Origin: Mobula hypostoma
Taxonomy: Eukaryota
NCBI RefSeq assembly: GCF_963921235.1
Contig: NC_086108.1
Coordinates: forward strand, 21,452,001-21,516,000
Reading direction: 5' to 3'
Length of the DNA stretch: 64,000 nt
The translations under genes and the position numbers were made by a program. The notes beneath the pieces are model-generated. The model did not search any database, had not been told where the DNA came from, and worked only from the letters and a program-made list of their open reading frames with translations. Shown in pieces: positions 1 to 64,000 of this stretch. Every line of letters starts with the position of its first letter. Position 1 is the first letter of the stretch.

Positions 1-391
1 CACAAAGCCCTATCTTCACATTGAGGATACTCCTAATCATAGTGTGTGATATTAAAAAAGTGCTGAATGTCAGAACAGATCTGACAGCTCAAAACTGGAT
101 AACCAAGAGAACCATGAATCATTACAAGCATCAGGATGTACAAGACAGCCAGTTCTTGGTAAATAATAACATTTATTCTACCATTACCTTCTTACTGCAT
201 TTGTCTTGTTGAATGGCATTCCAGGAGCAATATCAGGATTAGTGTAGAAGTGTGCTTGATGGTCAGCACAGATTTTATTGTCCAATACACCCCATTATTG
301 ATTGTACAACTCTATCACTCCAAATGTTAATAGTACAGATGTAATTTCACAAATATATAACTGAAGTATAACCTTCATAACTGAGCATTCA

Positions 392-545
392 CACCAAAGT
401 TGCTGGTGAACGCAGCAGGCCAGGCAACATGCTGCCTGGCGACTGTACCTCTTCCTAGAGATGCTGCCTGGCCTGCTGCGTTCACCAGCAACTTTGATGT
501 GTGTTGCTTGAATTTCCAGCATCTGCAGAGTTCCTGTTGTTTGCG
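392..545. mobile_element. Fold-back mini Penelope-like element (two inverted PLE 3' ends)
   Basis: Left arm caccaaagttgctggtgaacgcagcaggccaggca is near-exactly the reverse complement of the right arm tgcctggcctgctgcgttcaccagcaactttgatgtg. Perfect 14-bp TSD taactgagcattca at 378-391 and 546-559. The same terminus follows the GIY-YIG ORFs elsewhere in the window. Confidence 0.85.
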
Positions 546-768
546 TAACTGAGCATTCAATTGTGTTTGCAATATATCAGAACACTGGTTAGCTTTCCTT
601 GCCTAATCTACACGATACCCATTTGTGAATCATGAACTGTATCAACATTTAGATCAGGGTTTCCTAACCTGGGGTCCATGGACCCCTCGATTAATGGTAA
701 GGGTCCGTGGCGTAAAGGTTGGGATCTCCCCCTGGGGGCGGTGGGACTTCCTAAGGAGCGCTCAGTAG

Positions 769-3900: not shown

Positions 3901-3905
3901 CCATT

Positions 3906-4620: not shown

Positions 4621-4800
4621 CATGTGTGTTTATCATTGCTGAACTGTTGTATTTATTATCCTTTTGATTAGAGTACTGTGTTGCTTATTTTCTTTCACCT
4701 CAGTAGCTTTCTTAGTTTCTTTCTTAGTTCCAGTAATCCAGACTCCAACTGAGTGATCCATTTCTGCTCGTTTGGCAACCCAGTTACGGGGTACGTAATA
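4621..4800 (+). repeat. 3' LTR remnant
   Basis: Direct repeat of 2646-2808 ending cgtaata, followed by TSD gggt. Confidence 0.9.
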
Positions 4801-5680
4801 GGGTAGAGTTCAGAATCTGCCCTTTTGAATGGTCTTAACTGCATTTCTCATGGCCCAATTGAGATATTGTTACCCAACTTTTCAGGCAGTGAGTCAGGTT
4901 TTGCCTGAGCTATTATGATATTATTACTTTCCCCTTTATGATGCAGCACTTGATGTTGGACTTCAATAACAAGCAATTGACTATGGTCATTAATCCATAA
5001 GAAAAATGGCAGAAGCAGATAAAGTTTTCACCTTGTGAAAACTTCCCGAAATGGAAAAACCTCAAAACACATTTGCTTGCACTTCACAACAAAATAGCAC
5101 TGATTTGCATGGTTCATACATTTCACTGCATTGCTCACTGCTAAATCTGGAATGCCCCACACAACTGGAGAAGAGCTAATGCTGCCTATAGTAAGAGAGG
5201 TTCTGAGTTTTGCATTAGCCACCTACCTATACTGTTAAAGTGATTCTGCTTGGCGACAACTCTATTCAAAGACGAGTCGATGAAATGTCTCAGCATGCGG
5301 AAGATACTTAGGACAACAGTATTTGCTAGGTAGTTGGACGAGTCAACTTTGCCAGGCAACATATCTTTCTTCTTGGTTGTGTTCTCTTCATAAAGGATAA
5401 AAGCATGATCCATGAGTTGTTAGTTACAAGGATACAAGACACAGATATGAAGGAGTCGTCAATATTTCGGGATGTTGAAAATTTTTTAAAGAGAATACAT
5501 TCCACTTACCAACATTCTTGCTTGTGCAATAGATGGGGCATCATCATAACAGGACGCCACCATAGGATCATTACTTTCTTGAAAAAAGATGAAGCTGACA
5601 TATTTACCATTCATTATGTAGTTCATAGGCAACATCTTGTCGCAAAACACCCAAGTGATCAGCTGCACCAGTCATTTAAT

Positions 5681-6500
5681 CAACATACATCAAAGTTGCT
5701 GGTGAACGCAGCAGGCCAGGCAGCATCTTTAGGAAGAGATACAGTCGACGTTTCAGGCCGAGACCCTTCGTCAGGACTAACTGAAGGAAGGGTTAGTAAG
5801 AGATTTGAAAGTGGGAGGGGGAGGGAGAGGGGGAGATCCAAAATGATAGGAGAAGACAGGAGGGGAAGGATGGAGCCGAGAGCTGGACAGGTGATTGGCA
5901 AAGGGGATATGAGAGGATCATGGGACAGGAGGCCCAGGGACAAAGACAAGGAGGGGGGGAACCCAGAGGACGGGCAAGGGGTATAGTCAGAGGGACAGAG
6001 GGAGAAAAAGGAGAGTGAGAGAAAGAATGTGTGTATAAAAATAAATAACAGATGGGGTACGAGGGGGAGGTGGGGCAATAGCGGAAGTTAGAGAAGTCAA
6101 TATTCATGCCATCAGGTTGGAGGCTACCCAGACGGAATATAAGGTATTGTTCCTCCAACCTGAGTGTGGCTTCATCTTTACAGTAGAGGAGGCCGTGGAT
6201 AGGCATGTCAGAATGGGAATGGGATGTGGAATTAAAATGTGTGGCCACTGGGAGATCCTGCTTTCTCTGGCGGACAGAGCGTAGGTATTCAGCAAAGTGG
6301 TCTCCCAGTCTGCGTCGGGTCTTGCCAATATATAAAAGGCCACATCGGGAGCACCGGACGCAGTATATCACCCCAGTCGACTCACAGGTGAAGTGATGCC
6401 TCACCTGGAAGGACTGTTTGGAGCCCTGAATGGTGGTAAGGGAGGAAGTGCAAGGGCATGTGTAGCACTTGTTCCGCTTACAAGGATAAGTGCCAGCTTA
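5681..6500 (-). mobile_element. 5'-truncated Penelope-like element (GIY-YIG endonuclease plus 3' end)
   Basis: ORF 5793-6404(-) reads FTCESTGVIYCVRCSRCGLLYIGKTRRRL...VATHFN...EQYLIFRLGSLQPDGMN. TSD cagtcatttaat (5669-5680) / caatcatttaat (6501-6512). Confidence 0.9.
5743..5778 (-). ncRNA. Minimal type-I hammerhead ribozyme motif in PLE 3' end
   Basis: Minus strand reads AGUC-CUGACGA-AGG-gucucgg-CCU-GAAA-CG-UC-GACU: stem I AGUC/GACU, conserved CUGANGA and GAAA boxes, stem II AGG/CCU, GUC cleavage triplet. Confidence 0.8.
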
Positions 6501-21026: not shown

Positions 21027-21200
21027 AACACGAGGAAGTCTGCAGATGCTGGAAATCCAAAGCAACACACGCAAAATACTGAAGGAACTCAGCAGATCAG
21101 GAAGCATATATGGAACTGAATAAACAGCTGACATTTTGGGCTAAGACTCTTCTTCAGGATTTGAAAGGAAGGGGAAAAACACCAGAATAATAAGATGGGG
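21027..21200 (-). mobile_element. Old PLE 3' end fragment with decayed hammerhead
   Basis: aaacacgaggaagtctgcagatgctggaaatccaaagcaacacac...ctgacattttgggctaagactcttcttcaggat is homologous to the younger PLE ends. Confidence 0.65.
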
Positions 21201-21813
21201 GTTCTATATATATCGATAGAATTCATCTGCTATACTACAAGGTATTGTGTTCAATGCCATACAATTAACTGAGAATAAAATATCTTTATTCCTATGAAGA
21301 ACACACATGATTCATGCAGAATAAACGCTCAGCATGAAGTACTGATGCAAAATCAAAATTATATCAATAAATGCACATTAAATTGAAAATTGAAAGTTGG
21401 ACTTCCATTAAAGGACTGCTTGCAGTCCAAGTGTAGGGTGATTTCAGTCTTAGGACAAGTGGATGATAGTACAAAATCTTCAGTACAAAGCATATGAATA
21501 GTTTATTTTAGGATGAGGCACCTTTAAGGCTGACATCATCAGCATTGCACCAAACTAGTCATATGGAGTTCTATCAGGAATCCAGCCTGGAGGCTAAGAC
21601 ATACAATTGTAGGCTACCAAGTGCTAAAGAGACAAATATTACAATCTTGCCCCATCCAAACAAAAACATGGTAAAAAATCTATTTAAAAAGATACTCATG
21701 CAAGACAAAAGGATATTACCAGAAGGTCATCTCCTCAAACCACTTGACAAAGTATGAGATATCCTTGGCTTCAATTTCACTTCCCTACTTAAACACCATA
21801 TCACTCAGCTGTG

Positions 21814-22195
21814 AACAACACACTCAAAATTGCTGGACAAACTCAGATCAGGAAACATCTACGGAAATGAATAAATAGTTGACGTTTTGAGCTGAGACCC
21901 TTCTTCAGGACTGGAAAGGAAGGGGAAAGGCATTAGATAAAAAGATGGGAAGAAGGGAAGAGAGGCAGGCTAGAAGGTGATAGGTGAAACCAGGTCTGTG
22001 GAAAAGGTAAAGGGTTGGAGTGGAAGAATGGACCACAGGAGTAAGGGAAGGAGGAGGGGACCCAGGGATAGGTGATAGGTGAGGAGAAAAGTTATGAGGC
22101 CAGAGTAGGGAATGGAACAAAAGAAAAGAGGGATGGGGAAATTTTTATAAATAAAAAATAAAAGTATTAAAAATTACCAGAAGGAGATATCAATA
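21814..22195 (-). mobile_element. Old PLE 3' fragment
   Basis: PLE terminus, decayed hammerhead (gttgacgttttgagctgagacccttcttcaggact) and purine-rich UTR. Confidence 0.65.
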
Positions 22196-23445: not shown

Positions 23446-23473
23446 ATGATTGGAGCTGAGGATGTATTTCAGA

Positions 23474-24154
23474 ATGCAAACTCGAGGAATTCTGAAGATG
23501 CTGGAAATTCAAGCAACACACATCAAAGTTACTGGTGAACGCAGCAGGCCAGGCAGCATCTCTAGGAAGAGGAACAGTCGACGTTTCGGGCCGAGACCCT
23601 TTGTCAGGGCTAACTGAAGGAAGAGCTAGTAAGAGATTTGAAAGTGGGAGGGGGAGGGGGAGATCCAAAATGATGGGAGAAGACAGGACAGGGAGCAACA
23701 CACATCAAAGTTGCTGGTGAAGCAGCCTCCAACCTGATGGCATGAACATTGACTTCTCTAACTTCCGCTAATCCCCCACCTCCCCCTCGTACCCCATCCG
23801 TTATTTATTGATATACACACATTCTTCTTCTCTCTCTCTCCCTCTGTCCTTCTGACTACACACCTTGCCCATCCTTTGGGTTTCCCCCCCACCCCCCTTT
23901 TCCTTCTCCCTGGGCCTCCTGTCCCATGATCCTCTCGTATCCCTTTTGCCAATCAACTGTGCAGCTCTTGGCTCCATCCCTCCCCCTCCTGTCTTCTCCT
24001 ATCATTTTGGATCTCCCCCTCCCCCTCTCAAATCTCTTACCAGCTCTTCCTTCAGTTAGTCCTGACAAAGGGTCTCGGCCCGAAATGTCGACTGTACCTC
24101 TTCCTAGAGATGCTGCCTGGCCTGCTGCGTTCACCAGCAACTTTGATGTGTGTT
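23474..24154. mobile_element. Fold-back PLE insertion with inverted 3' ends and an extra internal terminus
   Basis: Minus-strand PLE end at about 23474-23690, a second short end at about 23693-23721, and a plus-strand PLE piece at about 23722-24154. 13-bp TSD gatgtatttcaga (23461-23473, 24155-24167). Hammerheads at 23576-23611(-) and 24058-24093(+) both have CUGACAA cores. Confidence 0.85.
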
Positions 24155-24919
24155 GATGTATTTCAGATCTGGGTGAGGTAGAAGATTCAGCATATTCACA
24201 ACCACAGTGGACTTCAGAGTGTTCTGCGGATGACGCAAAAAAAACCTGTGGAAGGTTTTCCATAATCTTAAACTAAGGCTGACACCTCACTATGAAGTGT
24301 AAGGTAATGATGCACAGAAATCTAACAACATTTAGCATGTGTGAAATTAACTGACAATTAAGCAAAAATTGTTGATTGCTATATTTACAATCCTTTGGTT
24401 AAAATTTTGTCGGATAGGAACAGCAGGCAGATGAACAAAATTATTCTCAATTTCCAAAATATTTTAAAGGAACCAGACCATTCACCGGATATCTTATAAT
24501 CACTGCTTGATAGGCCCAATGCAGGTTCTCAGCTGTTAAAAGAAATGAGCTGCTCATTTGAGGAAGTGATAATTCATCAACTATTGGAATATTTTGGAAA
24601 CAAAAGAGTTGAAAAGGAAATAAATTCAAAATACTTGATTAGTCACCATTTCTGTGCTGTAGTTTCTATAGTTTCTATTCACTATCCATCATCTGATTAA
24701 TCCACCTTCGTCTCTCATAATTATTCGAAGTCGATAATTATTGCTTCTCTACATACACAGGCTGCCTTCGAATTGTCAGTATAACTTTCCACTCTAACCT
24801 TCTGAGCTTTCTTAAAAAAAATCCTGGCTATCAATAGCATTTCTTAGTCTATTCCAATCTGTGTTCATATTCTTTAAGAAAGCTGCAAGTCTGACAGTGG
24901 GCATCAAGTGTCTTGACTT

Positions 24920-26960
24920 TTAACACTTCTCTCTCCAATTCCAACCTCTCTCCTTCCGAACGCTGAGCTCTTCACTCCCTCTGCACTAATCCTAACCTCA
25001 CTCTCAAACCGGCTGATTAGGAGGGTGCTGTAGTAGTCTGGTGTACTGACCTCTATCTTGCTGAGGCCCAACAACAACTCTCAAACATCTCCACTTACTA
25101 CCCCCTCAAACAGGACCCCACTAAGGAGCACTAGGCCATTGTCTCCCACACCATCATTGACCTTATTAGCTCTGGGGGTCTCCCATTTCCACTGCCTCCA
25201 ACCTCATAGCTCCGTCACCCTGCACCTGCTACTTCTATCTCCGACCCAAGACCCAGAAACCTGCTTGTCCAGGTAGACCCATTGTTTCAGCTTGTTCCTG
25301 CCCCACTGAACTCGTATCTGCATACCTCAACTGTTTTCCCCACTTGTTCAGTCCCTTCCTACCTACATCTGTGACACTTCACACGCTCTGGATCTTTTCA
25401 ATAATTTCAAGTTCCCTGGCCCCCATCATCGCATTTTTACTATGGATGTCCAGTCCCTATACACCTCCACCCCTCCCCCGCCCCCCCAACAGGAAGGCCT
25501 CAAAGCTCTAGGTTTCTTTCTGGACACCAGACCCAGCCAGTTCCCCTCCACCACCATTCTCAACCATCTAACGGAACGTCCTCACTCTTAATTATTTCTC
25601 TTTTGGCTTCTCCTACTTGCTTCAAACAAAAGGTGTACCCATGGGCACTCCTATGGGTCCCAGCTATGCCCACCTTTTTGTTGGCACGTGGAACAGTCTA
25701 TGTTCCAAGACTACCCCGGTGACCATCCCCCGCTTTTCCTATGCTACTTCGAGGACTGCATTGGAGCTGCTTCCTGCACACATGCAGAACTTGCTGACTT
25801 CATCCACTTTGCCTCCAGCTTCCACCCTGCTCTCAAATTCACCAGTTCCATTTTCGACACCTTCCTCCATTTCATGGTCTCTCCATTTCTATCTGTGCAG
25901 ACAGCTCATCTACTGATGTCTATTATAAACCCACAGACTCTCACAGTTACCTGGACTATCACACACAAAATGCTGGTGGAACTCAGTAGGCCAGGCAGCA
26001 TCTATGGAAAGAAGTACAGTCGTTATTTCGGGTTGAAATCCTTCAGCAGGACTGGAGAAAAGAGCTAAGGAGTACTTGGAACATCAGTGGTACTTTTTTT
26101 CCATAGATGCTGCCTGGCCTGCTGAGTTCCTCCAGAATTTTGTGCGTGTTGCTCAGATTTCCAACATCTCTATATCTTCTCATTTGTTACCTGGACTATA
26201 CCTCTTCCCCTTCTCTCACTTCCTCTGTCAACCCCGCATCTACTCTCAGGATGAGATTTTTCATTCCAGAACGAAGGAGATGTCCCCCTTCTAAGAAAGG
26301 GGCTTCCTGTCCTCCACCATCAACGCTGCCCTCCACCGTATCTCTTCCATTTCACGCAGGTCTGCTCTCATCCCATCCACCCACCACCCTACCAGGGATA
26401 GGTTTCCTCTCGTCCTCACCTACCACCCTACCAGCCTCCTAGTCCAGCACATAATTCTCTGCAAATTCCTCCATCTCCAACAGGATCCCATCACCAAGCA
26501 CATCTTTTCTCCCCTCCCACTTTCTGCTTTCCACAAGGATTGCTCCCTACGCAACTCTTGTCTATTCATCCTTCCCCACTGATCTCCCTTCTGACACATC
26601 CTCGCAAGTGGAATAAGTGCTACATCTGCCCCTACACCTCCCTCCTCACTACCATTCTAGTGCTCCTCCCCCCTTTTCTTTCTTCCATGGCCTTCTGTCC
26701 TCTCCTATTAGATTCTCCCTTTTCCAGCCCTGTATCTTTTTCACCAATCAACTTCACAGCTCTTTACTCCCCCGCCCCCCCACTCCCGGTTTTTTCTTGT
26801 CTTTCTCTCTCCCCTCCCCCTCCACACCTTTTAACTCGACTCCTCATCTATTTTTCACCAGACTTGCTGAAAGGTCTCAGCCTGAAATATTGACTGTACT
26901 CTTTTCCAGAGATGTTGCCTGGCCTGCTGAGTTTCTTCAGAATTTTGTGTGCGTGGCCTG
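24920..26960 (+). mobile_element. Older PLE with degraded reverse transcriptase
   Basis: LKPAD*.GAVVVW.TDLYLAEAQQQLS, FTMDVQSLYT, QTKGVPMGTPMGPSYAHLFVG, LCYFEDCIG, RKWNKCYICPY, and a PLE 3' end with decayed hammerhead at about 26860-26895. Confidence 0.85.
25960..26185. mobile_element. Fold-back mini-PLE nested in the older PLE
   Basis: Inverted arms cacacaaaatgctggtggaactcagtaggccaggcagcatctatgg / ccatagatgctgcctggcctgctgagttcctccagaattttgtg. 14-bp TSD gttacctggactat (25946-25959, 26186-26199). Confidence 0.85.
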
Positions 26961-27493
26961 AGAGTCCCTTATGAGCATGCAAGACTTGGAGCTTTCCAAG
27001 GTAAGGCTGACGGTCTTATCATTATTCAGACAAACTAAGAAAGTACTTATGATTTCCAGTCGTAATCCAAAATTGTGAAGCCAAACCTCTTAAGATTATA
27101 TTTGTTCACTTGCAAGAAGGCACTTTGCTTTAAAAACCAAATACTGATTTTGGCACTTAATTCTGATAATTTCTTCAAGCAAAGTCAAGAACATTTGAAT
27201 ATAATGAGAATCCTTTTAAGCAAGAGATTAATTAAAATGGATTATTATAAAAACTCATCAGCAACCGATATAATTATTTTATAAATTAGAAGAGTCAATT
27301 CACTCCCTAGGTAGACTGAGGTTTTCGGTCGCTTTTTTTAAATAAGAAAAATAATGCCTACCCCACCAAAGGCTGAAGACTACCCTGTTTCTTTTAAGTC
27401 TCAGTTGTTGGAAATGACATGTCTGATCAAGAAACATACATCAAAGTTGCTGGTGAACGCAGCAGGCCAAGCAGCATCTATAGGAAGAGGCGC

Positions 27494-27529
27494 AGTCGAC
27501 GTTTCAGGCCTAGAGCCTTCGTCAGGACT
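27494..27529 (-). ncRNA. Minimal type-I hammerhead ribozyme motif
   Basis: AGUC-CUGACGA-AGG-cucuagg-CCU-GAAA-CG-UC-GACU. It differs from the other copies only in loop II. Confidence 0.8.
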
Positions 27530-27824
27530 AACTGAAGGAAGAGTGAGTAAGGGATTTGAAAGCTGGAGGGGGAGGGGGAGATGCAAAATGATAGGAGAAG
27601 ACAGGAGGGGGAGGGATAGAGCCGAGAGCTGGACAGGTGATAGGCAAAAGGGGATACGAGAGGATCATGGGACAGGAGGTCCGGGAAGAAAGACAAGGGG
27701 GGGGGTGACCCAGAGGATGGGCAACAGGTATATTCAGAGGGACAGAGGGAGAAAAAGGAGAGTAAGAGAAAGAATGTGTGCATAAAAATGAGTAACAGAT
27801 GGGGTACGAGGGGGAGGTGGAGCC

Positions 27825-28300
27825 TTAGCGGAAGTTAGAGAAATCGATGTTCATGCCATCAGGTTGGAGGCTACCCAGACGGAATATAAGGTGTTGTTCC
27901 TCCAACCTGAGTGTGGCTTCATCTTTACAGTAGAGGAGGCCGTGGATAGACATGTCAGAATGGGAATGGGATGTGGAATTAAAATGTGTGGCCACTGGGA
28001 GATCCTGCTTTCTCTGGCCGACAGAGCGTAGATGTTCAGCAAAGCGGTCTCCCAGTCTGCGTCGGGTCTCACCAATATATAAAAGGCCACATCGGGAGCA
28101 CCGGACGCAGTATATCACCCCAGTCGACTTACAGGTGAAGTGATGCCTCACCTGGAAGGACTGTTTGGGGCCCTGAATGGTGGTAAGGGAGGAAGTGTAA
28201 GGGCATGTGTAGCACTTGTTCCGCTTACACGGATAAGTGCCAGGAGGGAGATCAGTGGGGAGGGATGGGGGGGACGAATGGACAAGGGAGTTGTGTAGGG
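27825..28300 (-). pseudogene. PLE GIY-YIG endonuclease domain
   Basis: C-terminal part of ORF 27825-28595(-): VIYCVRCSRCGLLYIGETRRRLGDRFAEHLRSV...LEEQHLIFRLGSLQPDGMN. Confidence 0.9.
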
Positions 28301-29179
28301 AGCGATTCCTGTGGAATGCAGAGGGGGGGGGAGGGGAAGATGTGCTTAACGGTGGGATCCCGTTGGAGGTGGCGGAAGTTACGGAGAATAATATGTTGGA
28401 CCCGGAGGCTGGTGCGGTGGTAGGTGAGGACCAGGGGAACCCTATTCCTAGTGGGGTGGTGGGAGGATGGTGTGAGAGCAGATGTTCGTGAAATGGGGGA
28501 GATGCGTTTAAGAGCAGAGTTGATAGTGGAGGAAGGGAAGCCCCTTTCTTTAAAAAATGAAGACATCTCCCTCGTCCTAGAATGAAAAGCCTCATCCTGA
28601 GAGCAGATGCGGCGGAGACGGAGGAATTGTCTGATCAAGAGCTGATTTATATTATCATCTGTAGACCTTGTGTGAAGACGAACTTTTCAATAACGTGCAG
28701 AGTGAAAATAATCAAGAGAAATAATCAATGGAGAGGTCTGTCCCACAATTCACTAAAGTTACAATCTGGATGCCAACAAAAGCTGAAGTGATTAAGTTGC
28801 AGGGTATGTGTTCCCCACTTTTTCTCTCTTTTCAAAGATATCCCTCTGTCCTCCTGTTTATCAGAAACAAAATATAAATTTAAAACACATTTTATTGTTG
28901 GTAGAAAACAAACAACATCCAGTGTGATCAGTTAAACTATTCTGCCTCTTGTATCAGAATTATGTACTTCAGATGGCAGGGCATCAAAGATATTTTTACA
29001 GATGCAGGAGGTCCACTAAAACAATAAAGTCACACTGTTTTGATTGCTGTTGTACCACACAAGCTTTAATCAGCCTACTAGAAACAATATCTACAGAATT
29101 TAGCAGGGAAAATTAACCTTAGAATGGAAAACTATTTCACAGTGCTCTCCCTACCCTCAAGAAACACAACTGTGAGGTC

Positions 29180-30225
29180 AGAATTAGAATCAGGTTTAAT
29201 ATCACTGGCATATACCACTCAAACAACTGATCTGCTTCACTCTGTATGCCTCCTCATCACCATCTAAAATTTATTATGAAAGTACATATGTATCACCATA
29301 TACAACCCTGAGATTGGTTTGGTTACAGGCATACTCAGTAAATCCAAGAACCACAAAAGAATCCATGAAAGATGCACCCAACATCATTGGCAAATTTATA
29401 GATGGTGTTTGAGCTGTATCTAGCCATATGGAACACAGTCATGTGTGTAGACAAGAGTAGAGCAATGGGCTAAGCACGCATCTTTGTGCACCAGTGTTGA
29501 TAATCAGGAAAGATGAGACGTTATTTCTAATCTGCACTGGCTATGGTCTCCTGAGGATGAAGTCAAAGGTCCAGTTGCAGAGAAAGGTATAGAGATCCAG
29601 GTATTGGAGTTGTTGATTAAAACTGAGGGTACGATTGTGTTGAATCCTGAGCGGTAATCAACAAACAGCAGTCTGACATAGGTATTGCTATTCCCAAACA
29701 CAGGCAAATCTGCAGATGCTGTGCACACCAAATGCTGGAGGAACTCAGCAGGTCAGCCAGCATCTATGGAAAAGAGTAAACAGTCGACATTTCGGGCCGA
29801 GACCCTTCATCAGGACTGGAAAAGGAGGAGAAATTTGCCAGAATAAAAAGATGGGGGGAGGGGAGGGAGGACAAGCTAGAAGGTGATCGGTGAAGCCAGT
29901 TGTGTGGGTCCTGATGAAGGGTCGCAACCCAAAACATTGAATGCTTACTCTTTTCCATACATGTTGCCTGGCATGCTGAGACCCTCAAGCATTTTGTGTG
30001 TGTTGCTAGGTACTGCTATTGTTTAGGCAATTCAAGACCGAGTGGAGAGCCAGGGAGATTCCATCCACTGTAGACCTATTGTGTCAATAGGCAAATTGTA
30101 GTGGCTCCAGGTCCTTGCTTAGGCAGGCGTTGGTTCTGGCTGGCCATGACCAACCTCTCAAACCCCTTCACTTCAGTAGATCAGAGTGCACCTGGATGAT
30201 AGTCATTGAAGCAACTCACCCCGCT
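29180..30225 (-). mobile_element. Rex1/Babar-type LINE fragments
   Basis: Minus-strand NTYVRLLFVDYRSGFNTIVPSVL and a 3' tail (aataaacctgattct-like). Interrupted by a mini-PLE. Confidence 0.65.
29693..30006. mobile_element. Fold-back mini-PLE (older subfamily)
   Basis: Inverted PLE ends with hammerheads at 29782-29817(-) (CUGAUGA...GAAAUGUC) and about 29907-29942(+) (decayed). TSD taggtattgctatt (29679-29692) / taggtactgctatt (30007-30020). Confidence 0.8.
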
Positions 30226-30715: not shown

Positions 30716-31510
30716 CTCCAAGCCTCTCTGAATAATTATATCACCATCACTGATTTATGTGAATGCCTGGCTCTTCCATTTTGGGTAACAAAGAGAATTT
30801 CTAGTAGTTTTGTCTGGAGCTTAAGGAAGGCCTGCACTAAGTGTAGAATGCATATACACCTCCGAAACCACCTTCTCAACATGCCAATTACCTTTTGTCC
30901 CACCTTACAGAACCCATGGGTTCCATACAGCCACCTCAGAACCCACAGAATCAGAACATCTAAGAAGAAACTAAAAGAAAGGAATAAAATAAAAAATGCA
31001 GAGGAGCAAATCAAATTAAGGATTTGCAGATTTGAGAATTCAGGTAATATTCCTACAAACTAATTATTGATATTATTGGCACATTCAGCATTAAACAATC
31101 TGTACAACAAATAGTGAAGGAAAAGCTAACAATTACTTGACACTCTTAATAAGAGCAATCTACCCTTTATTCTGGTTAAGATAAATCTAAATGACCATAT
31201 CAGCCAATAACTGTGGAAGAGGTATGCAAATAAATGTTGTCAAATGAATTTGATTTTGTATAACAATAAAGTAAAACAGAGCCTATCAGTCAAGACTACT
31301 ATAGACCAGATGTTTGGCTGTGTCACAAGCCTTTATACATTGTGGAAGTTAAACAATCTATATTAATTGCTTGCTAATTCTATTTATTACAGCAAATCCT
31401 AATAAGAAGGCAACACATAATTAGTCCATTAATGAAAAGTTATTTTTCGTTCCATTCCTGTTCTTCTTAAACATCCCATTCTAACCAAAACAAACTGCTC
31501 TCAAAAAATA

Positions 31511-31698
31511 CACATCAAAGTTGCTGGTGAACGCAGCAGGCCAGGCAGCTAGCTCTTCCTTCAGTTAGTCCTGACGAAGGGTCTCGGCCTGAAACGTCGA
31601 CTGTACCTCTTCCTAGAGATGCTGTCTGGCCTGCTGCGTTCACCAGCAACTTTGATGTGTGTTGCTTGAATTTCCAGCATCTGCAGAATTCCTCGTGT
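31511..31698. mobile_element. Fold-back mini-PLE with intact hammerhead
   Basis: Inverted arms cacatcaaagttgctggtgaacgcagcaggccag / ctggcctgctgcgttcaccagcaactttgatgtg. TSD ctgctctcaaaaaata (31495-31510, 31699-31714). Confidence 0.88.
31567..31602 (+). ncRNA. Minimal type-I hammerhead ribozyme motif
   Basis: agtc-ctgacga-agg-gtctcgg-cct-gaaa-cg-tc-gact read directly on the plus strand. Confidence 0.82.
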
Positions 31699-31849
31699 CT
31701 GCTCTCAAAAAATATCAACTTTTCTTGGTGTTGCCATGAACCGTGTTGCATGCTGTTCTGATCACTTCCATTTTCCACAAGAAGCAACTTCTCACAATTT
31801 GTTACTTGGGATGCAAAACCACTATAAGAAAATTAAGTATTTTTGACAC

Positions 31850-33066
31850 AGAGTGGATAGGGGAGAACCAGTGGATGTGATATATTTGGATTTTCAAAAG
31901 GCTTTTGACAAGGTCCCACACAGGAGATTAGTGTGCAAACTTAAAGCACACGGTATTGGGGGTACAGTATTGATGTGGATAGAGAATTGGTTGGCAGACA
32001 GGAAGCAAGGAGTGGGAATAAACGGGACCTTTTCAGAATGGCAGGCAGTGACTAGTGGGGTACCGCAAGGCTCAGTGCTGGGACCCCAGTTGTTTACAAT
32101 ATATATTAATGACTTGGATGAGGGAATTAAATGCAGCATCTCCAAGTTTGCGGATGACACGAAGCTGGGCGGCAGTGTTAGCTGTGAGGAGGATGCTAAG
32201 AGGATGCAGGGTGACTTGGATAGGTTAGGTGAGTGGGCAAATTCATGGCAGATGCAATTTAATGTGGATAAATGTGAGGTTATCCACTGTGGCAAAAACA
32301 GGAAAACAGATTATTATCTGAATGGTGGCCGATTAGGAAAAGGGGAGGTGCAACAAGACCTGGGTGTCATTATACACCAGTCATTGAAAGTGGGTATGCA
32401 GGTACAGCAGGCGGTGAAAAAGGCGAATGGTATGCTGGCAATTATAGCAAGAGGATTCGAGTACAGGAGCAGGGAGGTACTACTGCAGTTGTACAAGGCC
32501 TTGGTGAGACCACACCTGGAGTATTGTGTGCAGTTTTGGTCCCCTAATCTGAGGAAAGACATCCTTGCCATAGAGGGAGTACAAAGAAGGTTCACCAGAT
32601 TGATTCCTGGGATGGCTGGACTTTCATATGATGAAAGACTGGATGAACTAGGCTTATACTCGTTGGAATTTAGAAGATTGAGGGGGGATCTTATTGAAAC
32701 ATATACAATCCTAAAGGGATTGGACAGGCAGGAAGATTGTTCCCGATGTAGGGGAAGTCCAGAACGAGGGGTCACAGTTTGAGGGGAAGCCTTTTAGGAC
32801 CGAGATTAGGAAAAACTTCTTCACACAGAGAGTGGTGAATCTGTGGAATCCTCTGCCACAGGAAACAGTTGAGGCCAGTTCATTGGCTATATTTAAGAGG
32901 GAGTTAGATATGGCCCTTGTGGCTAAAGGGATCAGGGGGTATGGAGGGAAGGCTGGTGCAGGGTTCTGAGTTGGATGATCAGCCATGATCATACTGAATG
33001 GCGGTGCAGGCTCGAAGGGCCAAATGGCCTACTCCTGCACATATTTTCTATGTTTCTATGTTTCTA
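31850..33066 (+). mobile_element. 5'-truncated CR1 LINE (RT C-terminal half, 309-aa ORF 31853-32782)
   Basis: YLDFQKAFDKVPH, GVPQGSVLGP, KFADD, RPHLEYCVQFW, and tail tttctatgtttctatgtttcta. Confidence 0.92.
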
Positions 33067-36678: not shown

Positions 36679-37521
36679 AGACAAGAGAAAATTTGCAAAT
36701 ACTGGTGTTACATGTCCCCGGTTTCGTTTTACTGGGAGTCCACAGTTTCGTTTCTGTGAGCGTTACCTTATGACCTATGCCGACGGTATAAAAGAAATGT
36801 GGTCATGGTACTGAGAAGGAATCGAAGGAAAGAGAGAGAAAGTGAAGACTGCAGATTTCGAGCTATCCGGGAACAGCTCATGATCGAGAAGGGTAAAGTC
36901 TAATGCTTTTACCCATACCCAAAGGATTAGGTTAATCAGTGGCACACTGTGCATTGTGGAGACGTGTCTGTCCTTCGTATGATCCATGGGTGTGGATTTC
37001 GTGACAGTCACTTTGTGAAATCACTCTTTGTGGGCTTCGGAACATGTATTCCTCGGCTGGGATCTTCAGTAACCGTTTCTTCGTTCGCTAGCCATGGAAT
37101 CTTTGGAATTCGTCATGATTGTCTCGTCACTGCACTGTGAACCCACAAGTCTCTCCTCTCACCTATTTCGTGAATTACTGGGACTGTCTGAACTACCACT
37201 TTAAGACTGTGCTTGAGTAAGATTTGTTAAGAACGGGTTCTAAGTTTTACTGTAAGGGAGCTACAGACACATAACACTGCTAACTTCTGTTTCAGAAAGT
37301 AGTTTATTTAATTTTCTATATTTTTGAGTAGATGTAAATAAATATGGTGTTTTTAATATTAAAACCCAACTCAATTTGTCATCTCTTGCTGCTGGTATGT
37401 TACGAAATCGTAACACTGGAAATCCAAGCAACACACACAAAATGGAGGAACTCAGCAGGCCAGGCAGCATCTATGGAAACGAGTACAGTCTATATTTTGG
37501 GCCGAGACCCTTCAGCGGGAC
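36679..37521 (-). mobile_element. Short old PLE 3' end split by a solo LTR
   Basis: PLE tail aaaatttgcaaatactgg|aaatccaagcaacacacac. TSD cctccatatagaac (36665-36678) / cctccatatggaac (37522-37535). Confidence 0.7.
36706..37415. mobile_element. Solo LTR (710 bp)
   Basis: tgttaca...cgtaaca termini and a perfect 4-bp TSD ctgg (36702-36705, 37416-37419). Confidence 0.85.
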
Positions 37522-41699: not shown

Positions 41700-42170
41700 T
41701 AAACACAAGCGATTCTGCAGATGCTGGAAATCCAGAGCAACACCCAAAATGCTGGAGGAGCTCAGGTCAAACAGCATCCACAGAGAAGAATAAACAGTTA
41801 ATGTTTCGGACAAAGAGCCTTCATCAGGACTGGGAAAAGGAAGAACCAACACAAGCTGACAGGTGATAAGGGAATCTAGGTGATGGGAAAGGTCGGTGGG
41901 TATTATGTGAGAATTTGGGAGGTGATAGGTAGAAAAGATAAAGGGCTAAAGAAGATGAAATCTGACAGGAGAGAAGAGTGAACCATAAGAGAAAGAAAAG
42001 GAGGAAGGGCACCAAAGGGAGATGATGGGCTGGTGAGGAGAACAGAAGGGTTAAGAGTGGAGCCACAATGAGGAATGGAAGAAAAGAGAAGAGGGAGGGG
42101 AGGAGGAATTACCAGAAGTTAGAGAAATCGATGCTCATGCTGTCAAGTTGCAGGCAACCCAGAAGGAAAA
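41700..42170 (-). mobile_element. Old PLE 3' fragment
   Basis: PLE terminus, decayed hammerhead (minus strand agtcctgatgaaggctctttgtccgaaacattaact) and GIY-YIG end. ttttaaacac is repeated at both flanks. Confidence 0.7.
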
Positions 42171-45440: not shown

Positions 45441-48439
45441 TCTTTGTTCCCTCAACTCATCAGCTCAGTATTACATCCGGTTTTCTAAATCTCTCTTTTT
45501 TGTTTGCTTTATTCATAGTTGGTAGGCAGGGAGAGACAGCATCCAGACTCAGCTCTTTGACCATGAAGGTATCAGTCGAACAAATGATAGCAGCATCAAA
45601 ACTTCAGTATAACAAGCACCACTGACTACAACCTTGCTGTTTCTGGTGTTTTCAAGATATTACTGACCACTCAAACCATGGAGAGATAGGGCAGCACGTT
45701 GGGACACACAGGCAGTGGGAAGTAGTGCTGTTGTGGGAGCAAGGCTGGACAATGTCAGTTCATTAGTTAGTCTTAAGAAGTAGGCTATTTGGATTCTCAT
45801 TCCTGCTCCATCATTCAGTAAGATCTTGGCTCATCATACAACTCAACCCCACTTTACTGCTCCATTCCCATATTCTTTGATTCCCTTAAACATCTGTCAA
45901 TCATCATCTGGAACATACTCAGTGATTGAGCTTGCACATCCTTCTGGGACTGAGAATTCCAAAAATTCACAATACTCTGAGTTAAGATTTTTTTTTCTCC
46001 ATTCTGTCTTGAATAGCTGCTGATTAATTCAGAAATTGGTGTTTCTAGTGAAATAAATTAACATCTTTTTCTTCTACCTTATCAAACCCAGAAAAAGAAT
46101 TTTGTACTTTTCTCGGCAATTGGCTCCAATTCTGATGAACTCTAGACAGAACAGGTCTGCTTCACATAACCCCTCCTCAATGAATCTCCTCTACGCTCCC
46201 TGCTATAAAAATACCATTCTTTGGATAGGTGAGACCAGATCTTTATAAATATTTCACAACTGATTTGACCAGGTCTCCATATTGCAGCATATCCACTCTA
46301 CTACTCAAATATTCTTTCCGTAAAGGGTATCATTGAGTTACTTTACACTTTGCCCATTCATTGACTGTCCCCACCTAGTTTCCAACTCTAATCATAAAAA
46401 ATTAACAACACCCCCTAATTGATAACCAAACACAAAAAGATACGAAACCCTGCACTCCTCTATTTGCACCACTGCCAAATGGTAGAGATTCCACATATCA
46501 CATCCTGTTAATTGCCTTCATTCCTTTTGTCTCCTTCCTCATAACCCAATAACATGACAAAAATCTATTTTACTACTGAATGTATTATATAATGTCAAGG
46601 TCTGGAGGAAAAAAGTGAAGAACTGCATTAATTCAGTTGGAAATATTAGTAAATCTCTATTGAAAGCTGAAGCATTTATAGGGAACTGATCAGGAGTACA
46701 GTTCCTCGTGAGGGGAAGTGCTTACTTTTTCCTCACATGAAATGTAAAAAGTTAATTATCCACTAAGTTGACAAATGGACATTATCCCCATTCTCCTGAA
46801 TCATTGTTAATGAATAGAAAATGTTGGGGAGAAAAATAGCAAAAATAAAATTACAGTTTCACTTCGTATTTTCTTAAAATCATCAGATGTTAGCAAACTT
46901 CTCCTAGTTTACAATTGTACAGCCGACCACCCTTACTTTAGCAGCTCTGCAAGTGATGAATACCACAACAAAACAACAATGTAGTCACCTTTAACTGCTC
47001 TCTGGGACACCAACAAGCCACTCAGTTCTGCCAAACCTCCAAACAGAAATGGCTTACATGTTTCAAAAACAGGCAAAACCAAGCAATTGCCTTGTCTGGT
47101 CATACTTTCAGAACAATATTTATCAGATAAATGTCCACTCTCATCCATCAGTGTCACTAAGGCAGATTCAGTAGTGCAAGCACAAATCAGTCCTCAGACA
47201 ACTTTAATTCTCCACCCTGCACACACTCTGATTCTGAATAGTTCCACAGAAGCTTACCAGAAACTTAAGTAATTACAAATCATTTTCTGATTTCTCACTT
47301 GGCAACTTTAAATCCCTTCTCATCTTAAGAAGTATGTTCAACAGTAGATTGCAATGTAACTTTTTAAAATCCAGACAATGAACCTGACCACTGCAAGGTG
47401 CAATTCCCTTCTTACATTTTAATTTTTTCTGACTAATATAGTTCCATAATGTAATGTTGCCACCTTGAGCAATGACAAAGTTCTATTCTATTCTTAACAA
47501 GGTAACAGATTTTGTTTAAATATTCCGCAATAAATCAGCTGCCAAATCAGTATATTTGGACAGAACAATAATGAATAGGTGGTTCAGCTTATTTTTTTTT
47601 TATTTCTGCTTAAGTCAATGGCATTCTGAAAACATAAAGGAGAAAATCTACCCATTAACCAATCCTGATAATTACTCTATATGCATAACTATGCTTTCCT
47701 GTAATAAAGATTTTAACAAATTAAGAATTTGGATTGATACCAAATCCCAGTTATATAAATGTCTGATTCCATGGTGCCATGACAACCAATTCAAATTCAC
47801 TCTCACACCAAATCTACTAAACTAAAGCACCAACGCACATCACAAAATGTACATTTTTCTTAATTGCTTTAAAAATGCTCAGCAAGTTCAAATCACCCAT
47901 TTCTTGGTGACACATCAAATAATTTGCTTTCAGTTTTAAGAGAACCATAAAGGCAAGTTAGTATGATCTGCAGTGCTTATTATGAATTTTATTTGTTAAT
48001 CTCTTTAATCTCGTATTTTTGGATCGGGACTACAGAGCGTCGTGGGAGCTGAATTCTGAAAGAAGGCAGTTCTTTGAGAAACTTCTTCTAGTGCAAGAAG
48101 GGCGAGACTGCGCCAGCGCGTAATGTCAACAGGACCACTCGGAGAGTTTAAAAAGGAGACCACCCTATACAGCGGGCAGCGGAGTGAGTGGGAGCAGAGT
48201 GTAGGGCTTTGGCTTCAACGGGCTTCGGCGGTAAACGGGAAGAGGCGAGAGCGAAGCGCCAACTCTTTTTTTTTCTCCCACCACCCCCCCCCCTTCGTGA
48301 ATCGGCCCGGACAGACAGGAATAGCAGGGCTCTCACAGTTAATGGTACGAGCTAACAGTTTAAAAAGTTCATCTGTTTGGAGAGGTAAGTGGGTGAGTAG
48401 ACTTATTTTTCCTGTTTCATTCCTGTAGAATTAGATAGC

Positions 48440-49366
48440 ATGCCTGCAGGGTTAGTGCTTTGTTCTAGGTGTCAGATGTGGGAATCCTGGGAGACCTCCA
48501 GCCTCTCTGATAGCCACATCTGCGCCAGATGCACTGAGATGCAGCTCCTCAGAGACCGTGTTAGGGATCTGGAGCTGCAGCTTGATGACCTACTGCTTAT
48601 TAGGGAAAGTGAAGAGGTGATAGACAGAAGCTACAGGGAGGTAGTCATCCCTGGGCTACAGGGGTCAGAAAACTGGGTCACTGTCAAGAGAGGGAAGGGA
48701 AATGCCCAGATAGTGGAGAGCACACCTGTGACTGTCCCCCTCAGCAACAGATATCTTGTTCTGGATGCTGTTGAGGGGGATGACCTGACAGGGGACGCCC
48801 ACGGTGACCGGGTCTCTGGCACTGAGCCTGGCGCTGTTGTGCAGGAGAGAAGGAGGGAGAAGAGAAATGTGGTAGTCGTAGGGGATTCCATAGTCAGGGG
48901 AATGGACAGGAGACTTGATAGAGATACCCGCATGGTGTGTTGCCTCCCAGGTGCCAGGGTACGGGATGTCTTGGATCGGGTCCTGAATATTCTGAAGGGG
49001 GAGGGTGAGCAGCCAGTTGTCTTGGTACATGTTGGTACCAATGACATAGATAGGACAAAGGAGGAGGTCCTGAAGAGAGATTTCCAGGAGTTAAGAAGGA
49101 AGCTGAGAAGCAGGAGCTCCAGGGTAGTAATCTCGGGATTGCTACCTGTGCCACGTGCTAGCGAGGGCAAGAATAGTCGGCTCAGGCAGATGAATGCGTG
49201 GCTGAGAGACTGGTGTAGGGGGCAGGGCTTCAGATTCTTGGATAATTGGGATCTCTTCTGGGGGAAGTATGACCTGTTCAAAAAGGACAGGTTACACCTG
49301 AACCCAAAGGGGACCAATATCCTGGCGGGAAAGTTTAATAGAGCTGTTAGGGAAGGTTTAAACTAA
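48440..49366 (+). CDS. CR1 ORF1p: zinc-finger-like CxxC...CxxC, coiled-coil, SGNH esterase-like domain (308 aa, open)
   Basis: CSRC...CARC, LRDRVRDLELQLDDL, VVGDSIVRG, CLPGARVRD, VHVGTND, DRLHLN. Confidence 0.85.
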   Translation: MPAGLVLCSRCQMWESWETSSLSDSHICARCTEMQLLRDRVRDLELQLDDLLLIRESEEVIDRSYREVVIPGLQGSENWVTVKRGKGNAQIVESTPVTVPLSNRYLVLDAVEGDDLTGDAHGDRVSGTEPGAVVQERRREKRNVVVVGDSIVRGMDRRLDRDTRMVCCLPGARVRDVLDRVLNILKGEGEQPVVLVHVGTNDIDRTKEEVLKRDFQELRRKLRSRSSRVVISGLLPVPRASEGKNSRLRQMNAWLRDWCRGQGFRFLDNWDLFWGKYDLFKKDRLHLNPKGTNILAGKFNRAVREGLN

Positions 49367-49379
49367 TTTGGCAGGGGGA

Positions 49380-60822: not shown

Positions 60823-61303
60823 AGCAACACACATAAAAGTTACTGGTGAACGCAGCAGGCCAGGCAGCATCTCTAGGAAGAGGTACAGTCGACGTTTCAG
60901 GCCGAGACCCTTCGTCAGGACTAACTGAAGGAAGAGTGAGTAAGGGATTTGAAAGTTGGAGGGGGAGGGGGAGATCCAAAATGATAGGAGAAGACAGGAG
61001 GGGGAGGGATGGAACCAAGAGCTGGACAGGTGATAGGCAAAAGGGATACGAGAGGATCATGGGACAGGAGGTCCGGGAAGAAAGACAAGGTGGGGCGGGG
61101 GGGACCCAGAGGATGGGCAAGGAGTATATTCAGAGGGACAGAGGGAGAAAAAGGAGAGTGAGAGAAAGAATGTGTGTATAAAAATAAGTAACAGATGGGG
61201 TACGAGGGGGCGGTGGGGCATTAGCGGAAGTTAGAGAAGTCGATGTTCATGCCATCAGGTTGGAGGCTACCCAGACGGAATATAAGGTGTTGTTCCTCCA
61301 ACC
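60823..61303 (-). mobile_element. 5'-truncated PLE (young subfamily)
   Basis: Nearly identical to 27433-27910, and includes the GIY-YIG end LEEQHLIFRLGSLQPDGMNIDFSNFR. Confidence 0.9.
60887..60922 (-). ncRNA. Minimal type-I hammerhead ribozyme motif
   Basis: agtcgacgtttcaggccgagacccttcgtcaggact is the reverse complement of the intact motif at 31567-31602. Confidence 0.8.
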
Positions 61304-63929
61304 TGGGAGGACTTGTTGTTAAGTTTCTTCCCCAACACCCCTAGACTAGAGCCAATAGGGGGACGTAACAGATGCAAACTGCAAAACTGCAAGCAACTGC
61401 TAAATCCAGTTCCAATGAGGATTTCAAAAAAACCTGGAACCTCTGAAGTAATTGAACATATATAAGACTTTTTACCCCCTCTGGTAGCCACCTTGAATTT
61501 CACAGGACACTAGCTGACTTCAGAGATGCGATTTACATTTTGGTTTTACATTTTGCTGATATTAAATGGTTGCACGATGTTTGAAACAAGCTACTGAATA
61601 AAACAAGACAATGAAAGTTTGCTCTAGCAAATAGAGGCTCTATTTTGGTACGAGCAAAGGAGGTTTAACAAAACAACACCATGTCATTTTAATTACACAA
61701 TACACTTGACTATAGAGGAAATCATTCCAAAATTTTGGGTTACAGTGAATTTTTTAAGCATTTTTTTCTTAAACTAACTTCAGATCGACAGGGCCCTCCT
61801 CATGAAGGGCAGCATGCAACAATACCGATTCTCCCAAAAAAACTATAAGGAATAACAATAGACAGAATAAAATGCCAAAAATATACAGAAAATTATCTTC
61901 AAAAGATTTAACATTCTGAAGATCAGGGAGCATCTGTGGAAAGTGTCTCAGCTCAAAGACCATTCATCTGGTAAAGGGACCTTGACCAGTTTCACCTTCC
62001 AGCATTTTTCACTTCTATTTCAGATTTTCAGCTTCAACATTTTTTAAAAAATTCTTTACTGTCAAAAAATCTCTTCAATGTTAACAATAAAATAGCCACA
62101 CATGTCCCAAAAGTACAATTTCACAGAATGTCAAAATCACTCCTGAGTTGAGGGATTCCGACCACATCCTGCTCGGTTATGACCAGAATTATCACCTTCA
62201 CGTAATGCTTGACAGAATCTGTACCATATTGCCAAGGAGAGTGGAGAAATAAAGAGGAATTTGCCTGTCTTTTGGGAGCTGGCTGATGGCATTGCCACAG
62301 ATGTACCTTGGTGTTCCCATTCTGTCACCATGCAAAAAGATGAGACTTCTGCAGGTAAATTTTGCATTGTGCTTGTGCATAGATGCATATGATGGTAAAA
62401 CTGACTTAGACCTTGATTTTGATATGCAAACAATTTGAAAGATGCCCATGTTTACAAAACTTACTCAAATATTTTACTGCACTGATGTACAATAGAGCCA
62501 ACCATTTAGTTTTCACCATGTACCAAATGTGTCATCTCCAAAGATGAAGTCCCAATCAGATGTAGGTCTTGGAGAGCTGGTCCTTGTATTTGAATAATGG
62601 ACAAAATTTTCTATTCCACATCCCTTTCTTGAATACATTTCTTTTAAAACCTTTTAACACACCCAAATCTAATTATGTCAAAAAGATGAACTTCAGGTCA
62701 CCAAATAAAAATTCTCAACATAGAAGCTTGCAGGCCAAATATCTAAATAAAGTTGCCCAGATGATCTGGAATCAGGAATTAATTACAAATTCCAACAAAG
62801 AGCTGTTCCTCATTACCAGACGCCTGAAAATCAATTTCAAACAATGAGGCTATTTCAGGGAGGAATCCAGTGTGCACAAAGAAGCACTGTGTTGCCAAAA
62901 CCACTTAGCCAGATTTTAGTATTGCTGCATAAATAGTATGAAATACACAGTTGTTCACTAGTTTCCTCAGGCTATTTATTTCACATAAATAAAAAGTGAT
63001 GCCTGCTCACCATTACAATTGTTAACAACATGCGGCCCAATGCTGCTGTCTAGTCTGAAATCCTTCATTCTCACAAACAGAAGTTGTCATGCTGTACAAC
63101 GTGATCACAAATGCTTGCCATATGGACCATCATAAATCTGAGGCTTAATTTAAGCCTTGCCTTTCACCTTACCTTAGCGACCATAAGCCCAGGTGCTGAT
63201 ATTTTCAGCCAATACCAAACAATGTTCTCTTTGACCCTTTTAATACAATCCAACAATATGAAATAAAACACATCACGTTCAAGGAGGAAGGAGTAAGAAG
63301 GAAATACTTATATTAATTTCGCGCATTTAATGACTTCAGGAAAATATTTTACAGTCAACTAAATACTTTCCAATCAGAAAACTTCTGTTAAAAGTAACAG
63401 CTAATATGCATGGAGGAGTCTGACAAACCACATCTTTGTGATGTTTTGGGGGCTAAACATTGCACAGAATAACAATTAAACTCCTTGTTTTCTTTAAATA
63501 ATGCATAGTATTTTGTTGTCACACTAAGGATTCATGGATTACATCACAAACCTAAACAGATCACCATCTACTTTTCTAGTACTGCATTGTTTAAATTTAA
63601 ATTACATAATCAAGTTTCTGCAGACTGATAAAAATCAATTTTAATTTTCATATTCATTCACTATTTTACATGGATTTATGGCAAACTCCCACACAATGGC
63701 TTAACTAATTATCCACCTATCAATGAAGCACATAAAATAAGTCAACTGTAGAAAATGGAGGCCTTTCAGCTGATAGAAAACTTTGAAAGATCACTTCCTC
63801 ACACATATCTTTGTCACATATTCCAGTGAAGCACAAGTCTTTAATGCTAATGAATTGAATAATCTTAATGTAAAAATATGAATGTGTCCAAAGGAACATA
63901 TAAGCCAGTGCATTATACATCAAATAAAA

Positions 63930-64000
63930 ACGTAAACAACAGGAATTCTGCAGATGCTGGAAATTCAAGCAACACACACCAAAGTTGCTGGTGAACGCAG
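63930..64000 (-). mobile_element. PLE 3' terminus cut by the window edge
   Basis: aaacaacaggaattctgcagatgctggaaattcaagcaacacacaccaaagttgctggtgaacgcag matches the long PLE tail. Confidence 0.85.

What the first reader, a model, noticed from the sequence alone, without database searches (positions are those of the whole stretch)
31567..31602. Family of minimal hammerhead ribozymes carried on the PLE 3' ends
Seen: the motif AGUC-CUGACGA-AGG(loop)CCU-GAAA-CG-UC-GACU is intact at 5743-5778(-), 27494-27529(-), 31567-31602(+) and 60887-60922(-). It is near-intact at 29782-29817(-) and decayed at about 21130, 21880, 23576, 24058, 26020, 26860, 29907, 37487 and 41795. Known: Penelope-like elements encode minimal type-I hammerheads with a vestigial palindromic stem III, thought to cleave as dimers. 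Inference: this genome holds very many self-cleaving RNA motifs, and intact copies inside introns could cut host pre-mRNA or yield small circular RNAs. The 27494 copy varies only in loop II, as expected if the core is constrained.
Basis: partly seen in the sequence, partly recalled or inferred. Interest (0 to 1): 0.7.

Follow-up and report, generated by a model that had tools for sequence, protein, structure and literature searches.

The report
Penelope retrotransposon ends with minimal hammerheads
The motif is real: it is the small hammerhead-ribozyme shape already known from Penelope-type jumping genes, present about 97,000 times in this likely shark or ray genome, and the lone copies in this window are likely silent leftovers rather than cutters of host RNA.

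Summary
Confirmed and of a known kind. The 36-nt minimal type-I hammerhead lies in the terminal repeat (pLTR) of a Penelope-like element (RT plus GIY-YIG; two identical-sense motifs 3,511 nt apart in a full copy). 97,394 core-intact matches genome-wide (control 28). The motif differs less between four subfamilies (3-6 of 36) than the 14 nt before it (4-9), but one old lineage spread with A6C. Dispersed copies decay about neutrally; there is no excess of core-dead copies. 5' ends of copies pile up at the foot of stem I (895) and not at the cut site (277; controls 197, 162), and 0 of 68 ORF-start copies begin at the cut. The 31567 copy is a lone 188-bp TSD-flanked stub, predicted misfolded; no host exon was found, so 'intronic' is unshown. 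Side result: short two-hammerhead tandems elsewhere, one joint sitting on GT/AG splice signals at two loci with different haplotypes. The scan has noted this family, that pile-up and one of those loci before, on other DNA of this and other genomes. Cleavage itself was not tested.

The parts
31567..31602 (+). Minimal type-I hammerhead motif, young subfamily; stem I 31567-31570 with 31599-31602, core 31571-31577 and 31591-31594, palindrome 31594-31597, predicted cut after 31598
31511..31698 (+). Whole insertion: inverted piece (31512-31549) plus 5'-truncated sense pLTR from about 31553 (46 nt before the cut) and tail to 31698
31495..31510 (+). Left copy of 16-bp target-site duplication
31699..31714 (+). 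Right copy of 16-bp target-site duplication
27427..28686 (-). 5'-truncated PLE: end of RT region, Cys linker, GIY-YIG frame, 3' UTR, pLTR with motif at 27494-27529
5674..6497 (-). 5'-truncated PLE: linker and GIY-YIG frame, 3' UTR, intact motif at 5743-5778
60823..61305 (-). 5'-truncated PLE 3' end, intact motif at 60887-60922
23467..24171 (.). Compound inverted insertion, young subfamily; motifs at 23576-23611(-) and 24058-24093(+), both G8 to A
29723..30010 (.). Two older copies back to back: near-intact motif 29782-29817(-), decayed motif about 29907-29942(+)
25960..26961 (.). Older copies; motifs at 26018-26053(-) and 26860-26895(+) carry C at core position 6; PLE coding remnant between them
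37416..37521 (-). Older copy, C at core position 6, decayed
21028..21923 (-). Two old decayed copies, motifs at 21126-21161 and about 21875-21912
41703..41844 (-). Old decayed copy, motif at 41796-41831
387..546 (+). TSD-flanked young stub with inverted piece; its sense part begins one base before the predicted cut site and lacks the motif
63930..64000 (-). 3' end of a young copy cut by the window edge; its intact motif lies about 60 nt beyond the window

Best explanation
The motif is the minimal hammerhead in the terminal repeat of a very abundant Penelope-like retrotransposon, likely kept by selection on the active source elements, and the lone copies in this window are truncated by-products that are likely silent. 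Shown: a full copy (L045) has pLTR, tail, RT frame, GIY-YIG frame and pLTR, with the motif in both repeats 3,511 nt apart and about 60 nt before the open frame. Inferred: the element's RNA likely begins at or stalls the enzyme at the foot of stem I; reverse transcription likely starts 66-105 nt behind the cut site and usually ends early, which scatters motif-bearing stubs; longer copies arise when the enzyme carries on into the element's 3' end. Any cleavage would likely need a second motif (ACGU palindrome) and probably the element's protein, conditions a lone stub lacks.
For: Architecture; 3' ends at about +66 and a tail to about +105, as for the tail in PMC11167929. Motif differs by 3-6 of 36 between four subfamily majorities (part of it CpG decay in small old samples), the 14 nt upstream by 4-9, the 62 nt downstream by 7-19. 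Copies decay about neutrally; freeing four core A/T sites adds 523 matches to 30,670, four non-core sites add 849, so dead cores are not enriched. 5' junction counts: 895 at -32, 197 at -26, 277 at the cut, 162 at +4; 0 of 68 ORF-start copies begin within 3 nt of the cut and 25 of 37 long ones keep the whole upstream motif. Monomer folds with the core paired to the palindrome; in context stem I probability is 0.08, 0.01 and 0.00 for three window copies; the double-hammerhead scores -9.5 against -28.3 kcal/mol for the best dimer fold. Published minimal motifs showed no monomer and low dimer activity (PMC4209133) or needed the PLE protein (PMC11167929).
Against: No cleavage assay, no raw RNA reads. 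Folding energies ignore tertiary contacts, co-transcriptional folding and protein. The A6C lineage (10 of 17 sampled copies of subfamily B) argues against strict selection on catalysis. Downstream flank conservation (7-19 of about 65) overlaps the motif's range, so the contrast is clear only upstream. No compensatory stem changes were available: 231 of 234 fully paired stems I were the same sequence. The four junction counts use different anchors and masks and were not normalised.
Confidence: 0.8

Rival explanations
1. [quoted passage not shown]
For: 25 of 37 long copies run without a seam through the motif into the preceding unit, seven of them to the 880-nt limit of the fetch; paired pLTRs 99.5-100% identical; short tandems repeat one joint twice. 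This is the proposal of PMC4209133.
Against: A strand transfer through the identical pLTR, or read-through of tandem sources, gives the same DNA. The pile-up at -32 points to uncut templates. Joints of the short tandems are not at the cut site. Catalytic mutants did not affect insertion in vitro in the anole element (PMC11167929).
Confidence: 0.3
2. The motif is kept mainly as a non-catalytic RNA start or protein-binding signal (initiator, splice acceptor and hairpin at the 5' end of the RNA), and catalysis is dispensable.
For: A6C lineage: 425 strict matches, 24 of 30 inspected loci of one older subfamily by eye (output); A6C strongly lowered Mg-dependent cleavage in two other hammerheads (PMC7151607). 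Loop and stems are almost as invariant as the core. Copies start at the foot of stem I.
Against: The other three subfamilies keep every core base; core sites vary less than non-core sites genome-wide (523 against 849; sequence context not controlled). The A6C stubs may have been moved in trans, and A6C occurs in a natural active ribozyme (PMC7151607).
Confidence: 0.25
3. Intact dispersed copies cut host pre-mRNA or release small circles often enough to matter.
For: About one core-intact motif per 36 kb; low-depth contigs from runs guessed to be RNA cover unique sequence of the window; short tandems with two to four motifs 260-435 nt apart exist elsewhere.
Against: The 31567 copy has no same-strand intact partner in the window; predicted misfolding; dead cores are not enriched; no host exon found among 103 of 103 window frames and 150 of 354 flank frames scanned. 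Only 1 of 9 Xenopus dimers cleaved in vitro (10.64898/2026.07.22.740005).
Confidence: 0.07

Closest known systems
Minimal hammerheads (min-HHR) in pLTRs of metazoan Penelope-like elements (Cervera and De la Pena 2014, PMC4209133; parts 1-2 of 4 read)
   Same: Type-I layout, short stem I, extra unpaired base before stem II, palindromic 15.2-16.2 with no loop 3, both pLTRs of full copies, mostly solo copies genome-wide; a splice acceptor at the start of helix I as noted there for D. virilis.
   Different: About ten times the 9,000 motifs given for Xenopus tropicalis; stem II only four pairs, closed by G-U in the young subfamily; one near-uniform motif rather than many divergent families; an A6C lineage.
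PAc (Poseidon of Anolis carolinensis; Frangieh et al. 2024, PMC11167929; parts 1-2 of 4 read)
   Same: Motif next to the ORF start, two 3' end classes about 40 nt apart (tail), no sign of RNA or DNA ends at the cut site.
   Different: Here the cut site lies upstream of the open frame rather than inside it, and the protein has the Cys linker of Neptune/Nematis; nothing here was assayed.
EN+ PLEs of the Neptune and Nematis clades (Craig et al. 2021, PMC8557442; passages read)
   Same: RT, CX2-5CxxC linker, C-terminal GIY-YIG; 5' truncation, partial tandems, inverted 5' pieces, tail.
   Different: Clade not resolved by a tree; 11-16-bp target-site duplications are clear here.
Non-LTR retrozymes (Cervera and De la Pena 2020, PMC7229834, passages; Li, Clavereau and Pollet 2026, 10.64898/2026.07.22.740005, parts 1-3 of 5)
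   Same: Short head-to-tail units of 260-435 nt with one motif each exist elsewhere in this genome and derive from the pLTR; axolotl holds 126,247 type-I motifs, so the number is not unprecedented.
   Different: The window's copies are solo stubs; the tandems seen have two joints as a rule, occur at one or two loci each, and carry the minimal, not the canonical, motif.

Membership tests
Minimal type-I hammerhead of PLEs | Core CUGANGA and GAAA, UH cleavage site, stems I and II | tested here: met
   106 of 125 young full-span copies core-intact
Minimal type-I hammerhead of PLEs | Palindromic vestigial stem III allowing a dimer | tested here: met
   ACGU at 31594-31597; a nested double-hammerhead can be drawn but is not the favoured fold
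Minimal type-I hammerhead of PLEs | G10.1-C11.1 pair and an unpaired base between 9 and 10.1 | tested here: inconclusive
   G-C in three older subfamilies, G-U in 115 of 125 young copies; unpaired A present
Minimal type-I hammerhead of PLEs | Compensatory changes in the stems | tested here: inconclusive
   231 of 234 fully paired stems I identical; no divergent family found
Minimal type-I hammerhead of PLEs | Self-cleavage (dimer or protein-assisted) | not testable with these tools
   no assay; only contig-level runs
Rfam hammerhead families | Match to a curated covariance model | tested here: not met
   no hammerhead family among 9 matches at E<=10
EN+ Penelope-like element | RT followed by C-terminal GIY-YIG | tested here: met
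   L045: RVT_1 E=1.4e-5 (below Pfam cut-off), GIY-YIG E=5.3e-5, in two frames; relatives with PF00078 and PF01541
EN+ Penelope-like element | pLTRs, tail, inverted 5' piece, 5' truncation | tested here: met
Neptune/Nematis clades | CX2-5CxxC linker between RT and EN | tested here: met
   translation; definition from PMC8557442
Neptune/Nematis clades | RT phylogeny placing it in one clade | not tested
   no named reference set on hand
Non-LTR retrozyme | Tandem units each with an intact motif | tested here: not met
   not at 31567 or elsewhere in the window; met at L163, L164, L113, L207 outside it
Non-LTR retrozyme | Expressed circular RNA | not testable with these tools
   no raw reads offered

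The most novel reading that the evidence does not exclude
The pyrimidine tract just before stem I is both a splice acceptor and a lock that pairs with the catalytic core; splicing from a donor 276 nt behind the cut to that acceptor removes the lock and makes a 310-nt unit (or circle) that the element's enzyme copies more than once round. The same joint at two loci on different contigs, with four fixed differences in 310 nt, would record this happening twice, and so catch hammerhead retrozymes being born from a Penelope element by splicing.
Probability: 0.2. Interest if true: 0.65.

Novelty: new member of a known kind. Interest (0 to 1): 0.3.

Why it matters
The pairing of minimal hammerheads with Penelope elements is published; what the ribozyme does there is open. 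A young family with about 97,000 intact motifs gives unusual power to read the DNA record: copies end at the foot of stem I, not at the cut, dead cores are not enriched, and one lineage spread with a core change. That narrows the models (uncut template, or seamless ligation) and gives ready constructs. The window locus itself is ordinary.

Tried and rejected
Rfam scan: no hammerhead hit. Pile-up of 5' ends at the cut site as a fossil of cleavage: rejected; scripted tally of 30 loci gave 6 of 30 at -1/0 against 4 expected, my by-eye tally of the 100 rows gave about 10-11 of about 85 true junctions against about 11 expected, and about 40 of the 100 listed rows are fold-backs or deletions explained by stem I homology (by eye). 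Pile-up at the -34 acceptor: not seen (5 of 30). Splicing as the general source of short tandems: rejected, joints vary widely; only the L163/L207 joint fits GT/AG. Direct parent-offspring link L211 to L164 or L207 to L163: rejected, fixed differences. Covariation: no divergent family found. Host gene: no convincing exon; one weak STAT_int hit (E=0.008, 45857-46057 minus) had no STAT match among solved structures; exons under 55 codons or without a Pfam domain would be missed, and 204 of 354 flank frames were not scanned. No RNA holder listed; runs guessed to be RNA are contigs, show no splice joint with GT..AG ends among the rows shown and cannot show ends. Literature: 'hammerhead ribozyme' with 'cartilaginous' gave 3 unrelated papers; one chondrichthyan was included in the 2026 retrozyme preprint, whose supplements I could not see. 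The paper titled on PLE hammerheads cleaving as dimers appeared only as a citation; I did not read it.

Full report
Observation. The window is G000:C50:21452001-21516000 in a 3.48-Gb genome. The closest named relative of the element's RT is from a shark, 72% identical, so the host is likely a cartilaginous fish; earlier notes call it a ray. The five named motifs and nine decayed sites are all present. Counts: 20 loose matches in the window against 6.86 expected; 67,200 strict matches genome-wide, control 0; 97,394 with an intact core, control 28; 30,670 identical over 35 nt. Rfam has no matching hammerhead model. Positions below are relative to the predicted cut (0 = window 31599).

What carries it. 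Window copies at 5674-6497 and 27427-28686 continue upstream into a Cys-linker and GIY-YIG frame. Twelve long copies were fetched. L045 shows the full plan: a 265-bp 5' pLTR 99.6% identical to the 3' end, a motif in each, 3,511 nt apart, a 900-codon RT frame opening about 60 nt behind the cut, a GIY-YIG frame and an inverted truncated copy in front. L048 and L049 also have paired motifs. This matches EN+ Penelope-like elements with the Neptune/Nematis linker (PMC8557442, passages); I built no tree. The named locus is a 188-bp insertion (31511-31698) inside a 16-bp target-site duplication: an inverted piece, a sense piece from -46, and the tail.

Is it constrained? Among 125 young full-span copies not chosen by motif sequence (22 from 664 kb of unselected DNA, 103 from loci chosen by protein or ORF start), 106 keep the core; non-CpG substitutions are 7 of 1250 in the core, 29 of 2250 in the rest of the motif and 65 of 8571 in flanks (core against flank p=0.59; four polymorphic flank sites set apart). 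Genome-wide, freeing four core A/T sites adds 523 matches and four non-core sites add 849: dead cores are fewer, not more, the opposite of what purging of harmful cutters predicts; context effects are not controlled. Four subfamily majorities (34, 17, 11 and 6 copies aligned, from 115 found; 35 left unclassified) differ by 3-6 of 36 in the motif, 4-9 in the 14 nt upstream and 7-19 in the 62 nt downstream. So the whole motif, not just the core, is conserved in source lineages. The exception is A6C in 10 of 17 copies of one older group, three of them in this window; 425 strict matches. A6C strongly lowered Mg-dependent cleavage in two other hammerheads (PMC7151607, passages). Stems gave no covariation.

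Does the DNA record cleavage? If cut RNA were the template, copies should start at 0. They do not: 0 of 68 ORF-start copies start within 3 nt of the cut and 25 of 37 long ones keep the whole upstream motif; junctions are flat from -7 to +7. Patterns demanding five mismatches upstream of a fixed start gave 895 at -32, 197 at -26, 277 at 0 and 162 at +4 (anchors differ, not normalised), and about 40 of 100 listed rows at 0 are homology-driven fold-backs or deletions. In the unselected sample 5 of 40 young pieces start at -32/-31. I ran the -32 test after reading e1-8157733, which reported this pile-up; my counts agree. One window copy (440) does start at -1, which the flat background explains. 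A seamless cut-and-ligate circle is not excluded by any of this.

Would the 31567 copy cut? Alone, the motif folds with its core paired to the palindrome (-10.0 kcal/mol; z=-0.37). In context the upstream pyrimidine tract pairs with the core and stem I has probability 0.08. The double-hammerhead of two motifs scores -9.5 against -28.3 for the best dimer fold, and costs 24 kcal/mol in the L163 tandem. No intact same-strand partner lies in the window. Published minimal motifs were inactive as monomers and weak as dimers (PMC4209133), or cut only with the element's protein, with no RNA-seq ends at the cut (PMC11167929). No host exon was found, so the intron claim is unshown either way.

Short tandems. 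Three of the 100 listed ORF-start matches lay in short arrays: 310-, 262- and 435-bp units, each within one 13-14-bp TSD, the joint repeated exactly. Single joints of this kind are common and variable, which fits template switching. The 310-bp joint, however, falls exactly on a GT donor and the CAG acceptor 2 nt before stem I, and recurs on another contig with four fixed differences; I found this before seeing that e1-8038400 describes the second locus in the same way. It suggests an occasional spliced unit or circle copied more than once round. With two loci it is a rare by-product, not a spreading family, and C17 alternation suggests a later DNA duplication at L163.

Verdict. Works like, and passes the sequence tests for, the minimal hammerheads of Penelope-like elements; catalysis untested. 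New member of a known kind, already met many times by this scan. The number of motifs is below the axolotl's 126,247 (PMC7229834, passages) though dense for the genome size. Interest 0.3. Supplements of the bioRxiv preprint could not be seen and may list chondrichthyan families.

Noticed in passing
L163 (G000:C2:157816475-157817740, minus) and L207 (G000:C50:58412480-58412945, plus): 310-bp units with one motif each; four joints inside a 13-bp TSD at L163, two joints at L207. The joint falls exactly at a GT donor (present in 19 of 39 copies read) and the CAG acceptor 2 nt before stem I. Four fixed differences between the loci; C17 alternates T/C along L163, which suggests a later 620-bp duplication.
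   Followed up: yes
L164 (C2:122.543 Mb), L211 (C96:1.980 Mb), L113 (C1:46.048 Mb): 262-bp and 435-bp tandems with the joint repeated twice inside one TSD; the 262-bp joint recurs once at L211, whose first unit also starts at the joint position.
   Followed up: partly
L103-L132, L165-L202: About 25 of 31 short ORF-start copies end 144-405 nt behind the cut and are followed directly by a 5'-truncated 3' end in the same direction, with variable joints: likely template switches.
   Followed up: partly
window 26018-26053(-), 26860-26895(+), 37487-37521(-); L282-L311: Older subfamily with A6C in the catalytic core, 10 of 17 sampled copies of that group.
   Followed up: partly
window 31553-31580: The pyrimidine tract before the motif is predicted to pair with the 5' core and stem II strand, locking the motif.
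   Followed up: partly
G000:C22:20187509-20187788: Five matches at a 49-bp period (one step of 98) of a motif truncated at -26.
   Followed up: no
window 11012-11320 and 52967-53274: Two 87%-identical 305-bp repeats with a tRNA-like head, likely a SINE.
   Followed up: no
window 3103-4798, 14867-17327, 31847-32782, 48401-52443, 54606-55719: LINE remnants with RT, endonuclease-like and GDSL-esterase frames, likely CR1-type (name recalled).
   Followed up: no
L045 and other long copies: The best matches share a frame break between RT and GIY-YIG near a C run; the query carried the same break, so this is likely ascertainment.
   Followed up: no
L059:7534-7938(-), L066:4905-5279(-): Tc5-type and DDE_3 transposase remnants in the flanks.
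   Followed up: no
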